Made by a program: the position numbers. Positions 21,001-27,000 of a DNA stretch of 64,000 nucleotides are shown one piece after another; positions within the stretch are counted from its first letter, which is position 1, and each line of letters starts with the position of its first letter. Origin of the DNA: Carcharhinus longimanus (taxonomy: Eukaryota); assembly GCA_030264375.1 (NCBI GenBank), contig JASCQW010000061.1, forward strand, positions 116,008,012-116,072,011, in the 5' to 3' direction.

Positions 21001-24000
21001 CTATATTAAATTAGAATATATTTAAACACTTCAGGTTTATGTTTCATTAGAAACAGGATCTCCCATCTGCTGTACAATCGAGATCACCAGTTTGAATTTT
21101 GGTGAATGAATTCTGCGTTTGGAGGCAGGTCTGTTTATTTAAATATAATAGCAGGCAGAAAAAGGCATACTTGATGAGTATGTGCTGTCATCTGAGAACC
21201 TCACCCATCAGAAGCGTATATCTGGAAATCATTTCATCCATTAATTTAAATTGACAGAAAATCATGGCAAACTTGCTTACAATTTGGCTGTACTGCACTT
21301 TCCACATGGGAGAGTGCATTTGTAAAATGATTCCTCAGAGGCTCATCTCTTTGTCTTATCTGGAGATAAAGGAGGGATACGACAGGATCAAAGATTGAGA
21401 AGTTAACAAATTGATTCCACGTTGCAAAATAATGTACAAGAGTGATTAAAAATTAGTAACCATGTTTGCAGTGTAAGCCATCAAAAAGATGAAGTATTGA
21501 CGATGTGCTGTTCCACAGAAAGAGAAAAACCGGTAAAAAGACATACCAAAACTATTCTCCCCGCAATCACATAAATGTCATTGGAATAACTGACTTTTCT
21601 TTTAATTTTCTTTAGGCCTTTTACATTGTATTTTGTAAAGCTATTGAAAGGACAGAACAGTCCGAGGATCTAAAGGAGCGAGTAGCAAACCTGACAGACT
21701 GCATCACATACTCTGTGTTTCTCTACACGAGCAGAGGCCTCTTTGAAAGGGACAAGGTTGCATTCATTTCTCACACAACTTTCCAGGTGTGTAGAGATGC
21801 TTTTCAATGCAGATTGACTCTGATATTATGGTAAATCCGAGTGTCCTGTTGCCTGCTTCATTACATTTCCAGCATAATATACGACGAATAAGGTGTTGCA
21901 ACCCACCCCCAACAACAGGAAAGATTATCAAAACCTCTGGGTATTCATTAATTACACATTTATAAGAATATCCAATACAGTGTTAATTATGCCATCATTT
22001 GCTCCTTTTGATGTTGTTAATGAGACTACTCTGTATTCTGTCAGTAACTTTCTTATTTGTAAGTAGCAAATCCTGAATGACATTGGTCCTTTAATATATT
22101 TTGCCATCAGGGAATTAAACTTCCTGAGCAGATGGCAAGTTATTTTACTTCAGGAAAATTATCTTCTCCAGTGTAACACATTGGTAGAAAACTATGAATT
22201 GATAGCTGGATTTTATAAATATGTGTTGGGCTAAAGTAAAAACGATTTGGAACCTGCAGAAATTGGAACTTCTTTGCAGTTATGTCATGGGACGTTTATC
22301 CAAAACATTTAATCTTGACAAATCGTTCGCAAAATAATTCAGTTTTAGATTACTGTTTAGTGTCTATCATACAGTTATATCTCCAGTCTGAATTCCTTGA
22401 TGATAGTGAAATAAGTTTGGCCTAAATGCTGTGGAGATTTTGCAGAGTCCCACAAACAGAAGATCACTAAACATTGTCTATTTTATTATTGAGTACTGTC
22501 ATTTATCTATTTTTCTTTTAGAAATGTTCCATTGGAAACTATTTTGGAACAGGACAGTAAAGAAACAGGAAAACATCCAGCAGTTTTCACTTGGAGTTCA
22601 TGGAACAATTCATGCACTTAAGAAACATCCAAAATGTTCCCAACTAATATGATTCACAATTAGGTGCAACCAAGATTTAAACAAGGGCTATGAAATTTTG
22701 AGAGTTCCCCCAAGCTTCGGTTGTAACTCCATGAGGTCACTGAAGAGACCACCACCTTAAACAATAAACAGAGGTGGCTTTGTATAATCTAGAATTTCAG
22801 TGCCAAATTACTGAAGTTAGATTTGTCCCATTAGAATTGCTGCTAAGATTAATTTTATTCTTTTATGCTTCCTTTTATTTTTCTTTAAACTTTTTTATTC
22901 AATAATAGAATTTTTCCAACAGAATTTCTGCCCTTACATTGCATCAGTGCACTCTTTTTCTATTTGATTCTTTATATCGGAACTTTTCTGAAAAAGGATC
23001 CACTGATGAGTCTTGTATGTGGCCCCAGGATATCTTGGATTCATGTATGAAATAAAATGATAAATGTGCATCGTGCCAAGGACCAAAATAAAAATTTTCC
23101 TCTAATTTTAACAATACATCGGGGGGTTAATTTTAACTGTATGCAATAGAGTAAAACGAGTAATAGCAAAACTGCAACATAAGCCAATAGAATTAAAAAT
23201 TATAAGATGTCAGTTGGCTATTATGTATTTTACATAATTGCTCAAACTTATCCCAGAGTTAAAAAGAAGCTGCGATCAGAAGTCATGTCTCGATATAGTC
23301 TATCTCGATATAGTGTTACCAGCACAATTAATCAGCTTGATTTCTGAGAAGAAAGTTTGAGTAAGGAACCAAGGCATACATTTTAAAGATTTATTCAGAT
23401 ATGTGCATGACAGCTGCTTTTGAATTCATTTAATAGATATTAAAATCCAAGGAGCCCTGGCAACTAGGAGTACATTAGTAGCCTGCGATGTCCAAATAAA
23501 AAAAAGTGATCAGTTTGAACTGCAAAGAGTCCAGATTAGTTAGTCTCACATTTGGTAAAATTATGTATTTTTTACTATTATGTACTACTTCATCTCAATT
23601 TTTTTGTCAGGAACGGTTGAGGACTCTGGGTGTGTACTCGTTGGAATTTGGAAGGATGAGGGGGGATCTTATTGAAACTTACAAGATACTGCAAGGCCTG
23701 GATAGAATGGATGTGGAGAGGATGTTTCCACTAGTAAGAAAATCTAGAACCAGAGGACACAAGCTCAGGCTAAAGGGATGATCCTTTAAACAGAGATGAG
23801 AAGGAATTTCTTCAGCCAGAGAATGGTGAATCTGTGAAACTCTTTGCCACAGGAGGCTGTGGAGGCCAGGTCATTGAGTGTTTTTAAGATAGAGATATAG
23901 TCTTGATTAATAAGGGGGTCAGGGGTTATGGGGTAAAGGCAGGAGAATGAGAATGAGGATGAGAAAGATAACAGCCATGATTGAATGGTGGAGCAGACTC

Positions 24001-27000
24001 GATGGCTGAGTGGCCTAAATTTGCTCCTATGCCTTATGGTCTTATAGCTGAAGCCTGTTACAAAGTCAACTTTAATCTGACTTAATCAATTTTCTGTGGA
24101 GCTTGAGGATAAATGCAATAACTAACAAAACATTTTTTGTTATTTTAGGCATGCTGTTAGAAACTTATTGAGGTATCAGGTCCAATGACGCGCCAATACG
24201 GAGCTAAAATTTACCCATGAGAGTTTATCTAACATATGTAGGAAGAATAGAAAAGACCCCAAACACAACATTTGAAATTGTACTATTTTCCAGATCCTGT
24301 TGATGAACAATGAGATAGATCCTGAGGAGTTGGACTTTTTCCTGAGATTCAATGTTGAGCAAACATACAAGAGCCCTATTGATTTTCTCTCCACCCAAGC
24401 TTGGAGCGCCATCAAGGTCAATTTAGCATTTTTCTTTTGCCCCTTACACTTGTGTGAAACGAATTTGACTGTTTGCTATGATAAGGGCCTTACATAAATA
24501 TAAATAAAAGTTACTGTTCAAGACGTGCTGAGGAGAATGAAATCTATCCTATGTCTCATTGGCTTGCTAAATTAATAAGCCAGCTTTAGACTAAAGCAAA
24601 TCAGCATGATTTGAATCAAGACCTCTTATTATCCTTACTCTGAAAGAAAAGTGGATTGTGCTTTTTCGTTTGTCTTCACACTTGGACATAAATCATTTCT
24701 TAGGTGCAAAGAGAATAAGAAATTGGACAGGAAGGAATAAATGCTTGTAACGGAGCCTTCCTAATGTTTCTTCCATATAAAATTTGCTATCCCAAGAAGA
24801 ATTCGCTATTTATCATAATTACAAGTACAGTACAGTTTTCCAGTAAATATGTGCTAGAATATTCATTGTTTAGTTCCCTTTTGTCCCCCAGAGGTACCAT
24901 CCAGAATCACAATGCCACGTGTACAAGTATCCAGCTGGTCCTCAGCAGTAGCTTTGTCAACCCTTCCAAACTTCCTGATTTTCTTTATGCTGTTTGAACT
25001 AAATCCAATACTGACAGAAATTTCCTCCTCCTAAATATTAGGAACACCATGGTCGGGATTCCCCCCCCCAAAAAAGCTAAGTGCTCATCAGGAGGGAAAA
25101 CGAGAGATTTTCCCGCCTGCTTTTTGGGTGTACTTAGTTTCACACAGAGTGCCTCAGGGAGATTCACACCGGAAAGTGGGGAAAGCGGAGCCTCATCCCG
25201 CTGGAGAGACTAGAATCAGCACGCTGAGTGCACCACTATGCGTGCACCAATCTGTCAGTGGGAAATTCAGTGCATGCTCACTTGGCCCCCCTGCCCTCCC
25301 CCCCACTCCCCCATCACTAGCCCCACGCAGCTAGCCCCAATCTTCCTCCCCCCTTCCCACCCCACCATGTGTCACTACAATCTCCGTCCCACACCCTCCT
25401 CCCATAGCCCACCCAGATTTTCTTCCCCACTTCACAATGGGCAGCCCAGAGCTGTCCACCCCCCCACCCCCCATGGGTAGCCCCGATTGCCTCCCTCTCC
25501 CATAAATCACATTGTACAGTGTGCAACAGATCTCCCCACACCCTCCTCCAACCACTGATCAACCCCTGAAAGGCCCGAACCCAGAAGCCCTCTCCCCGGC
25601 ACTGCACCTTGGCGGTACCCAATGGGCAGTGCCAGGCTGATAGTTTATGGAGACCATTTGTAATCCCCATTAGTGAGAACATCTCCCAGCAGGGGTGGGG
25701 AGACACTTGCAGGCCCAGAGACTGCTGATATTGAAATATCAAATTCAATATTATAATCAGCCCAACGTTGGTTTCCAGCATGATGCTGATTACATCAGAA
25801 AACATTGCCTGGGAGACACATGATTGGCTGGACGCCGGTCATGAGTCACGCTACAGGTCCCCTGCTGATGTCTCCCGGCCTACTGTGCTACTTGATCAGT
25901 GCAGCAGACCGGGAGAGTCACTCCCCTAAAGCTAGTGCCTCTGTCCTGCTGTAACTTCATTCCCTTTCATCGCCCTCCCTGATCACTGAGGCTGAACAAG
26001 ACTGTTTGCAACCTTGGCATTCAGTTTGCCTCTGAGATGACCTGCTGACCTTCATCACCCAGATCACTGACTTCCATCGCCATCATGATGCCCAACTCTG
26101 CCCGTGTCAGCCCATCTTTTGCTACTATAAGACTCAACTATTTCAGTGATCTCCTGGCCAAACTCGTATTTTCCATGTGAACACCAGCTCTTCCAAACCT
26201 CTGCTGCCCAAATCCTAACTCACCAAGATCCACATTCCTATCACCCCTGCGCTCAATGCCCAAAATTAACTCAGTCCCTAAATTCTTCAGTTTAGAATTC
26301 TCATCCTTTTTTTAAGGTCCTTCGTGTCCTCGCCTCTTCCTACTTCTGTACTCTTACAGTTGCCAAACCATGCCCTCTGCCCCTCTCAAAAACACCTTCT
26401 GGTCTTCCATCTCTGGATTTCTGTGCTTCTCCAACTCATCCATAGCAGCAGGCAAAGTCACGACTTCCTTTGCTGAGGCCCTAATCTGTGGAATTCCCTC
26501 CACCCCTTGGATTTCTCCAAGTCCCTTCCTCACTCTCTCCCTTTGGTCTTTAAAATGGGCTCCTGTGATCAGGTTCCTGGTCTCCTGTCCTGATGTTGCC
26601 TACTTTGGCTTGGTATCTATTATTGTCTCATTATGGTTCTGCGGAGCCATCTTTGGAATGGTTTCATTGTATTCTAAGAAGAAATTACTTATGGCTTATG
26701 TCCATAGTTATATGGAGATCTTTTGAGGCCAATTCTGGATCAGCCTCAAGTCACTAATAAATGCTGTGTAGTCAAGACTGAATTTCCCAAACTTAGTAAA
26801 CTTAAAAGTTCGAAAGAGTTACCAAAATGTTATGGGAGAAAAAGCATCACCTTTCTATCTATCTTTATTCTCATGCTTGTACAGTTTTCACTGTTTTTCA
26901 AGATGTATTTTGTATCCTGAGCATATCTGGTTTCTTACAGTGAGTGATGTAAAATAATGCCACACCACAACTGAAAATTTTATATTTAAGTTGAATTCCT

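What the first reader, a model, noticed from the sequence alone, without database searches (positions are those of the whole stretch)
21616..24416. Two intact dynein heavy chain (DNAH11-like) exons inside a VPS41 intron, same strand
Seen: two stop-free phase-0 exons (171 and 123 nt) with good AG/GT sites, separated by a 2.5-kb intron. They lie between consecutive VPS41 exons (16099 and 28143) that join each other directly (...SIDKP|PFITG...). I found neither flanking dynein exon in the window. Known: these peptides are adjacent in the C-terminal motor region of DNAH11/9/17, and VPS41 and DNAH11 are distant loci on human 7p. Inference: the retained intron argues against an ordinary processed retrocopy, so this is a DNA-level duplication or a misplaced contig. 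An N gap lies on the left (19257-19356, with different LINEs either side), but none lies between 24416 and 28143, so the right junction is within contiguous sequence.
Basis: partly seen in the sequence, partly recalled or inferred. Interest (0 to 1): 0.8.

Follow-up and report, generated by a model that had tools for sequence, protein, structure and literature searches.

The report
Stray dynein exons inside VPS41 intron
Two undamaged exons of an outer-arm dynein motor gene sit inside an intron of the unrelated gene VPS41 in a very fragmented draft assembly; this is either an assembly join error or a recent partial gene copy, both ordinary.

Summary
Exons 21616-21786 (57 codons) and 24294-24416 (41 codons), + strand, are stop-free and AG/GT-flanked. 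Each matches end to end, and at directly adjacent residues, the DNAH17 and DNAH9 chains of solved axonemes.

They lie between VPS41 exons 15959-16099 and 28143-28279. These two exons are consecutive in Pfam's TPR_Vps41 profile, positions 267-312 and 314-332.

- The 2,507-nt intron rules out a processed retrocopy.
- The VPS41 intron is phase 1. Read in the VPS41 frame, the dynein exons stop after 6 and 5 codons, so this is not in-frame exon shuffling.
- No other dynein exon was found in the window, but that screen was weak.
- The peptides are equally distant from DNAH9 and DNAH17 and show no decay.

The dynein piece sits at the extreme left end of its contig. A break-prone LINE and a 100-N gap bound it on the left, and a 1.6-kb C-rich repeat block on the right.

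No eukaryotic genome or read data were open, so I cannot separate a chimeric contig (about 0.48) from a recent DNA-level partial duplicate (about 0.42). Interest is low.

The parts
21616..21786 (+). Dynein heavy-chain exon 1: 171 nt, 57 codons, phase 0-0 in its own frame
   Evidence: Sequence, translation. PDB phmmer matches DNAH17 3682-3738 (E 2.4e-15) and DNAH9 3705-3761 (E 5.3e-14). No Pfam family reached its cut-off.
21787..24293 (+). Retained GT-AG intron between the two dynein exons, 2,507 nt
   Evidence: The two peptides abut in DNAH9 and DNAH17, so this is an intron position of the dynein gene.
23627..24045 (+). 5'-truncated LINE 3' fragment inside the dynein intron
   Evidence: Matches six other window regions at 60-75% identity. 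ORF 23500-23781 resembles the LINE tail by eye. No Pfam hit.
24294..24416 (+). Dynein heavy-chain exon 2: 123 nt, 41 codons, with the weak donor AAG|gtcaat
   Evidence: PDB phmmer matches DNAH9 3762-3802 (E 1.4e-6) and DNAH17 3739-3779 (E 1.3e-5).
19257..19356 (.). 100-N assembly gap, 2,259 nt upstream of dynein exon 1. It was neither filled nor looked up.
19357..20950 (-). LINE copy cut by the contig start, 5'-truncated near 20950, with a SINE nested at 20068-20406. It forms the left edge of the dynein-bearing piece.
   Evidence: RVT_1 positions 71-98 at 19358-19468 (E 0.01, below cut-off). Translations. The SINE has 10 or more in-window relatives at 65-87% identity. The same reverse-transcriptase segment recurs at 18155-18259 (-), so this is a separate copy.
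25000..26600 (.). GC- and C-rich repeat block between the dynein piece and the VPS41-side unique sequence. It is the candidate site of the junction under either reading.
   Evidence: GC is 0.46-0.61 against 0.31-0.43 in the flanks, with strong C skew. 25965-26416 matches 38456-38939 inverted at 57% identity. No Pfam family for its ORFs.
15959..16099 (+). VPS41 exon upstream of the host intron. It ends with the first base of a split Pro codon.
   Evidence: Pfam TPR_Vps41 positions 267-312 (E 1.5e-19). Yeast Vps41 852-896 in 7zu0_F (E 4.1e-7).
28143..28279 (+). Next VPS41 exon, downstream of the host intron
   Evidence: Pfam TPR_Vps41 positions 314-332 (E 0.069, weak). No PDB hit at E <= 0.01.

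Best explanation
The two exons are genuine, undamaged exons of an outer-arm dynein heavy-chain gene of the DNAH9/11/17 clade. They have nothing to do with VPS41.

My leading reading, by a narrow margin, is that the assembler put them in this VPS41 intron. A roughly 5.7-kb piece of the real dynein locus (19357 to about 25000) was joined to VPS41 intron sequence through the 1.6-kb C-rich repeat block at about 25.0-26.6 kb, either by a wrong turn in the graph or by a wrong gap closure. The resulting chimeric contig was then scaffolded correctly by its larger VPS41 part.

What is shown: the identity and integrity of the exons, their position and the layout of the contig. What is inferred: the wrong join itself.
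For: 1. This is a very fragmented draft. There are 15 N runs in 64 kb. The 16 pieces have a median length of about 2 kb, and 17 of 30 gap flanks match other repeats in the window.
2. The dynein piece lies at the extreme left end of its contig. It starts inside a LINE family at which other contigs also end: 19357-19438 matches 60873-60954, which abuts the gap at 60955, and 19464-19726 matches 7615-7887, which abuts the gap at 7514.
3. A compositionally distinct repeat block, GC up to 0.61 with poly-C runs, lies between the piece and the VPS41-side unique sequence. A unique piece bounded by repeats at both ends is the shape of a typical contig in this assembly.
4. The contig 19357-40982 is 21.6 kb, 3.1 times the next longest. 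That would fit earlier gap closing.
5. The exons show no decay.
   - They have no stop or frameshift and keep AG/GT.
   - They keep 42 of the 55 positions at which DNAH9 and DNAH17 agree. I counted this by hand from the alignments printed.
   - They are as close to each paralogue (57 of 98 and 54 of 98) as the paralogues are to each other (55 of 98).
   This is what the working gene's own exons would look like.
6. Neither flanking dynein exon is present.
7. Older short-read vertebrate assemblies are known to carry many assembly errors (abstract of PMC9516828). That paper concerns false duplications, not this kind of join.
Against: - The sequence from exon 2 to the VPS41 exon is continuous: 3,726 nt with no N. 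This is the only direct evidence on the junction, and it favours a real arrangement.
- Nothing in the window shows that the repeat block is young or high-copy. Its only in-window relative is 57% identical.
- The exon-2 donor AAG|gtcaat departs from the consensus at +3 and +5. That is a little unexpected for a working exon.
- All support for a wrong join is circumstantial. No reads, second copy or other assembly could be examined.
Confidence: 0.48

Rival explanations
1. A real, recent, DNA-level partial duplicate (an unprocessed gene fragment). A piece of at least 5 kb of the dynein gene, holding two exons and their intron, was copied into the VPS41 intron in the sense orientation. It is non-functional and too young to have decayed.
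For: - Gapless sequence links exon 2 to four recognisable VPS41 exons in one 21.6-kb contig.
- The intron and splice sites are retained, as expected for a DNA-level copy.
- Only two exons are present and neither neighbour was found.
- The weak exon-2 donor could be a first sign of decay.
Against: - There is no stop, no frameshift and no loss of conserved motifs in 98 codons. The copy would have to be young, yet diverged enough from its parent for a short-read assembler to carry it through without a break.
- The left junction is hidden by the gap at 19257-19356.
- No target-site duplication, terminal inverted repeat or poly(A) marks an insertion.
- The piece sits exactly at a contig end. An error explains that; under this reading it is only a coincidence.
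- The parent copy could not be looked for.
Confidence: 0.42
2. A real insertion that matters for VPS41. The two sense-strand exons, with usable splice sites, are sometimes spliced into VPS41 transcripts as poison exons, or they are transcribed as part of a separate small transcript.
For: - Same strand as VPS41.
- Strong acceptor and donor at exon 1.
- Inclusion would bring a premature stop after 6 codons (exon 1) or 5 codons (exon 2) in the VPS41 frame. That is upstream of the RING finger encoded near 36.95 kb.
Against: - No expression data.
- It first requires the arrangement to be real.
- The frame mismatch (phase-1 intron, 0-0 exons) excludes a dynein-VPS41 fusion protein.
- The exon-2 donor is weak.
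Confidence: 0.04
3. The dynein gene and VPS41 are truly interleaved on one strand, each gene's exons lying in the other's introns.
For: Only the order VPS41 exon, two dynein exons, VPS41 exon on the + strand.
Against: - No further dynein exon was seen in 39.6 kb downstream or 21.6 kb upstream.
- 0 of 356 + strand ORFs hit a dynein Pfam family. This screen is weak, because it also missed the two true exons.
- Reading the ORFs by eye found none.
- I recall no precedent for two large genes interleaved on the same strand.
Confidence: 0.01
4. A processed retrocopy, or a fragment carried by LINE transduction.
For: A LINE lies directly upstream of the exons at 19357 to about 20950.
Against: - A 2,507-nt GT-AG intron is retained.
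- There is no poly(A) tail or target-site duplication.
- The LINE is on the other strand and is 5'-truncated on the side facing the exons. 5' transduction needs a full-length element, and 3' transduction would carry sequence from the LINE's other side.
Confidence: 0.01

Closest known systems
Outer-arm axonemal dynein heavy chains DNAH9 and DNAH17 (PDB chains 8j07_n9 and 9fqr_I4), and by inference their paralogue DNAH11
   Same: Both peptides align end to end and consecutively with these chains, at about 83% of the way along the chain. Conserved stretches are kept.
   Different: Only 98 of about 4,500 codons are present. Identity is 55-58% to each chain, no closer to one than to the other. Orthology to DNAH11 was not tested.
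Chimeric contigs and other errors in draft vertebrate assemblies (for example false duplications, Ko et al. 2022, PMC9516828; I saw the abstract only)
   Same: A fragmented short-read-style scaffold, with a foreign piece at a contig end bounded by repeats.
   Different: That paper describes haplotype-derived false duplications, not a join between two loci. No read-level evidence of an error is available here.
Unprocessed (duplicated) pseudogene fragments lying in introns of other genes
   Same: Exons together with their intron and splice sites, out of context, without neighbouring exons, inside a host intron.
   Different: No disabling mutation is seen and no parent copy could be shown.
Processed retrocopies
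   Same: Coding sequence of one gene found inside another gene.
   Different: The intron is retained, and there is no poly(A) tail or target-site duplication.

Membership tests
Axonemal outer-arm dynein heavy chain, DNAH9/11/17 clade | Best matches are DNAH9/DNAH17-type chains over the whole exon | tested here: met
   DNAH17 at 2.4e-15 and DNAH9 at 5.3e-14, against 2.4e-7 for the next hit. DNAH9 at 1.4e-6 and DNAH17 at 1.3e-5, against 0.28 for the next hit.
Axonemal outer-arm dynein heavy chain, DNAH9/11/17 clade | The two peptides are colinear and adjacent in the protein | tested here: met
   DNAH9 3705-3761 then 3762-3802; DNAH17 3682-3738 then 3739-3779.
Axonemal outer-arm dynein heavy chain, DNAH9/11/17 clade | A complete motor gene (tail, six AAA+ modules, stalk, C-terminal domain) | tested here: not met
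   Only 98 codons are present. There is no second copy in the window. 0 of 356 + strand ORFs hit a dynein Pfam family. That screen is weak, because the two true exons were among the 89 ORFs and were also missed.
DNAH11 orthologue specifically | Closer to DNAH11 than to DNAH9 or DNAH17 (tree or reciprocal best hit) | not testable with these tools
   None of the 60 PDB hits listed (of 65 found) is named DNAH11. Equidistance from DNAH9 (57 of 98) and DNAH17 (54 of 98) is only suggestive.
Processed retrocopy | Introns removed | tested here: not met
   A 2,507-nt GT-AG intron lies exactly between the two peptides.
Processed retrocopy | Poly(A) tail and target-site duplication | tested here: not met
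   No flanking direct repeat of 16 nt or more that brackets the exons, and no A-tract after exon 2.
Unprocessed partial gene duplicate | Retains intron and splice signals of the parent | tested here: met
Unprocessed partial gene duplicate | A parent copy exists elsewhere in the same genome | not testable with these tools
   No collection holding this genome or any eukaryote was open.
Unprocessed partial gene duplicate | Signs of relaxed constraint (stops, frameshifts, lost splice sites) | tested here: inconclusive
   No stop or frameshift. 42 of the 55 positions shared by DNAH9 and DNAH17 are kept (hand count). The only blemish is the weak donor AAG|gtcaat.
Assembly chimera | The foreign segment sits at a contig end and is separated from the rest by repeats | tested here: met
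   This is circumstantial only.
Assembly chimera | No reads or pairs span the junction, and the true locus has a matching hole | not testable with these tools
   No reads and no access to the rest of the assembly.
VPS41 (host gene) | Flanking exons are consecutive in the VPS41 protein | tested here: met
   Pfam TPR_Vps41 positions 243-267, 267-312 and 314-332 for the exons at about 10.8 kb, 15.96 kb and 28.14 kb. zf-RING_Vps41 near 36.95 kb (E 3.9e-11).
In-frame cassette exon (exon shuffling into VPS41) | Exon phase compatible with the host intron | tested here: not met
   The host intron is phase 1. In that frame exon 1 stops after 6 codons and exon 2 after 5.

The most novel reading that the evidence does not exclude
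The arrangement is real and recent. A two-exon piece of a dynein motor gene was copied at the DNA level, in the sense orientation, into a VPS41 intron with its splice sites intact. It is now occasionally spliced into VPS41 pre-mRNA as poison exons, bringing a stop within 5-6 codons upstream of the RING finger. This would be a caught-in-the-act case of exon capture from a large gene.
Probability: 0.04. Interest if true: 0.45.

Novelty: new member of a known kind. Interest (0 to 1): 0.15.

Why it matters
The main value is practical. If the join is an assembly error, the dynein locus of this assembly lacks two exons or carries a false extra copy, and automatic annotation could produce a broken dynein model or a spurious VPS41 isoform. 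If the arrangement is real, it is one more unprocessed gene fragment in an intron. That has minor evolutionary interest unless the exons are spliced into VPS41 transcripts. Neither reading bears on an open question.

Tried and rejected
I did not re-send it under a stop-to-X code. Instead I screened stop-free ORFs against Pfam.
   - 89 + strand ORFs of 30 aa or more in 19357-28142, plus 133 and 134 + strand ORFs of 44 aa or more elsewhere. ORFs holding N were left out.
   - 0 of 356 hit a dynein family.
   - The screen is weak, because Pfam also fails to recognise the two true exons.
2. One LINE split by the gap, which would have tied the two sides together. Rejected: the same reverse-transcriptase segment is present on both sides of the gap, so these are two copies.
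3. LINE 5' or 3' transduction, or a template-switch chimera. Rejected on the LINE's strand and its 5' truncation.
4. A DNA-transposon or Helitron-like carrier. No terminal inverted repeats or flanking direct repeats bracket the exons. The only hits were two 22-31-nt chance-level direct pairs and one 16-nt inverted pair, and no tandem array of note.
5. In-frame exon shuffling. Rejected by phase.
6. Antisense ORFs over the exons and ORFs in the repeat block: 0 of 10 had a Pfam family at E < 0.09.
7. Rfam at gathering threshold and a tRNA scan of the whole window found 0 matches each.
8. Literature.
   - 'VPS41' with 'DNAH11' returned 3 papers, judged unrelated from titles and abstract starts in the listing.
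   - 'dynein heavy chain' with 'partial duplication', 'pseudogene' and 'intron' returned 2 Drosophila Y-chromosome papers, seen in the listing only.
   - Nothing in print on this arrangement was found by these two searches.
Every search was exon by exon.
10. Unused or closed resources.
   - The collections that were open (bacterial and archaeal genomes, phages, plasmids, E. coli) cannot hold this locus, so I did not use them.
   - As a result, DNAH11 orthology, a parent copy and other species' VPS41 introns stayed unchecked.
   - Supplements of papers were closed and would not bear on these claims.
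Full report
**What is there.**
On the + strand, 21616-21786 (171 nt) and 24294-24416 (123 nt) are stop-free. Each is preceded by AG and followed by GT, and 2,507 nt separate them.

I searched each exon on its own against the sequences of all solved structures.
- Exon 1 aligns over all 57 residues with DNAH17 3682-3738 (E 2.4e-15) and DNAH9 3705-3761 (E 5.3e-14).
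- Exon 2 aligns over all 41 residues with DNAH9 3762-3802 (E 1.4e-6) and DNAH17 3739-3779 (E 1.3e-5).

The two peptides are therefore consecutive in both chains, and the exon boundary falls exactly between them. Pfam gives no dynein family for either peptide: the only match at E up to 1 is an unrelated family at E 0.037, below its cut-off. This part of the motor is not covered by a Pfam model.

**Which dynein.**
I counted identities by hand from the alignments printed.
- Window peptides against DNAH9: 57 of 98 identical.
- Window peptides against DNAH17: 54 of 98.
- DNAH9 against DNAH17: 55 of 98.
- Of the 55 positions where DNAH9 and DNAH17 agree, the window keeps 42.

A three-way equidistance with conserved cores kept is what a working third paralogue would show. 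From recalled knowledge, that paralogue would be DNAH11. It is not what a decayed copy of DNAH9 or DNAH17 would show.

**Splice signals.**
The exon-1 acceptor has a long pyrimidine tract, and its donor is CAG|gtgtgt. The exon-2 donor is AAG|gtcaat, off the consensus at +3 and +5. No better GT lies nearby. The VPS41 exon at 15959-16099 also has an imperfect donor, CAC|gtatgt, so a weak donor proves little on its own.

**The host.**
VPS41 exons run in order on the + strand. Positions given for the first three are in Pfam's TPR_Vps41 profile.

| Exon | Evidence |
|---|---|
| about 10.8 kb | TPR_Vps41 243-267 |
| 15959-16099 | TPR_Vps41 267-312, E 1.5e-19; also yeast Vps41 852-896, |
| 28143-28279 | TPR_Vps41 314-332, E 0.069, weak |
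| about 30.2 kb | recognised only by recalled likeness to VPS41 |
| about 36.95 kb | zf-RING_Vps41, E 3.9e-11 |
| about 39.3 kb | recognised only by recalled likeness to VPS41 |

The exons on either side of the dynein pair are thus directly consecutive. The intron 16100-28142 is 12,043 nt as assembled and is phase 1, with a Pro codon split c|ca. Read in that frame, dynein exon 1 stops after 6 codons and exon 2 after 5. In-frame capture into VPS41 is therefore excluded. Inclusion could only act as a poison exon.

**Surroundings.**
The window has 15 N runs. Eight are exactly 100 N; the others are 113, 89, 64, 63, 10, 10 and 10. The 16 pieces have a median of about 2 kb. The dynein exons lie in the longest piece, 19357-40982 (21.6 kb), 2,259 nt from its left end. 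The same piece holds the four downstream VPS41 exons.

Left of exon 1:
- A minus-strand LINE starts at the contig edge. RVT_1 positions 71-98 fall at 19358-19468 (E 0.01, below the cut-off).
- It carries a nested SINE at 20068-20406 and is 5'-truncated near 20950.

Left of the gap:
- A plus-strand reverse-transcriptase-like remnant lies at about 18.4-19.26 kb. I recognised it by eye only; Pfam gave no hit.
- Further left is another minus-strand copy of the LINE family seen right of the gap. The same reverse-transcriptase segment occurs at 18155-18259 and at 19358-19468 (12 of 28 identical, E 8e-9).
- These are two copies, not one element bridging the gap. The gap join is therefore supported only by the order of the VPS41 exons.

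Right of exon 2:
- About 0.6 kb of AT-rich unique sequence comes first.
- A 1.6-kb GC- and C-rich block follows at about 25.0-26.6 kb, with GC up to 0.61 and poly-C runs. It includes an old repeat: 25965-26416 matches 38456-38939 inverted at 57% identity.
- About 1.5 kb of unique sequence then leads to the VPS41 exon.

**Other dynein exons.**
- TBLASTN of both peptides against the window finds only themselves.
- 0 of 356 + strand ORFs hit a dynein Pfam family. The sets were 89 ORFs of 30 aa or more in 19357-28142, and 133 plus 134 ORFs of 44 aa or more elsewhere; ORFs holding N were dropped. The VPS41 exon served as a positive control.
- This screen is weak, because the two true exons were among the 89 and were not recognised either.
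- Reading the ORFs by eye showed nothing dynein-like. That judgement rests on recall.

**What it is.**
The retained intron excludes a processed retrocopy. The LINE's strand and 5' truncation exclude transduction. No terminal inverted repeats, target-site duplication or poly(A) were found.

Two readings remain, and I could not separate them. No eukaryotic genome, no reads and no large protein database were open.

*Chimeric contig, about 0.48.* Points in favour:
- The assembly is very fragmented.
- The dynein piece sits at the very end of its contig. It starts in a LINE family at which two other contigs in the window also end.
- A low-complexity repeat block, a plausible place for a wrong join or a wrong gap closure, separates it from the VPS41-side sequence.
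- The exons look like a working gene's own exons.

Points against:
- The sequence is continuous on the right.
- Nothing shows that the repeat block is young or abundant.
- The exon-2 donor is weak.

*Recent unprocessed partial duplicate, about 0.42.*
- In favour: the continuity of the sequence.
- Against: the lack of any decay. The copy would have to be young, yet distinct enough from its parent to assemble through without a break.
- Against: the position at a contig end would be a coincidence.

Minor readings are real and spliced as poison exons (0.04), interleaved genes (0.01) and a retro-origin (0.01).

**Limits.**
- I do not take the window for human. The dynein peptides are only 55-58% identical to the DNAH9 and DNAH17 chains.
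- I did not try to identify the record.
- The N runs were left as they are.
- Background on errors in older vertebrate assemblies comes from the abstract of PMC9516828. It concerns false duplications rather than joins between loci.
- Two literature searches found nothing on this arrangement.

**Verdict.**
Both readings are ordinary, so interest is low.

Noticed in passing
window 20068-20406, 32547-32898, 15321-15636, 51114-51459, 59684-60023, 53195-53520, 52081-52454, 4312-4624 and others: An abundant SINE-like family of about 340 nt, with at least 10-12 copies in 64 kb on both strands, 65-87% identical to the copy at 20068-20406. Several assembly gaps abut copies of it.
   Followed up: partly
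window 19357-19726, 60873-60954, 7615-7887: Three contig ends in the window fall inside the same LINE family. This family seems to be a common cause of breaks in this assembly.
   Followed up: partly
whole window (N runs listed): There are two kinds of gap: 8 of 15 are exactly 100 N, and the others are 113, 89, 64, 63, 10, 10 and 10 N. This suggests two scaffolding stages, one with estimated sizes and one with unknown sizes. The gap left of the dynein exons is of the 100-N kind.
   Followed up: no
window 19357-40982: This gap-free piece (21.6 kb) is 3.1 times longer than the next longest of the 16 pieces, whose median is about 2 kb. It runs through SINE copies of the kind at which other contigs break.
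   Followed up: no
window 25317-25838 (-): A 173-codon stop-free stretch on the minus strand inside the C-rich block. It is low-complexity (G/W-rich), has no Pfam family, and is probably a by-product of composition.
   Followed up: partly
window 24176-24475 (-) and 24225-24422 (-): Two long antisense open frames (99 and 65 codons) overlap dynein exon 2. Neither has a Pfam family, and they were taken as chance.
   Followed up: partly
window 39133-39387 and 40000-64000 (+): VPS41 appears to end near 39.3 kb; I recognised its last coding exon by eye only. Downstream, 0 of 134 + strand ORFs of 44 aa or more had a Pfam family at E <= 0.01. By eye, the region is mostly SINE and LINE debris, including LINE-like ORFs at about 55.0-58.6 kb. 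The minus strand there was not examined.
   Followed up: no
window 16097-16105: The donor of the VPS41 exon is CAC|gtatgt, with C rather than G at the last exon base. This is an example of an off-consensus donor in a gene that is otherwise intact here.
   Followed up: no
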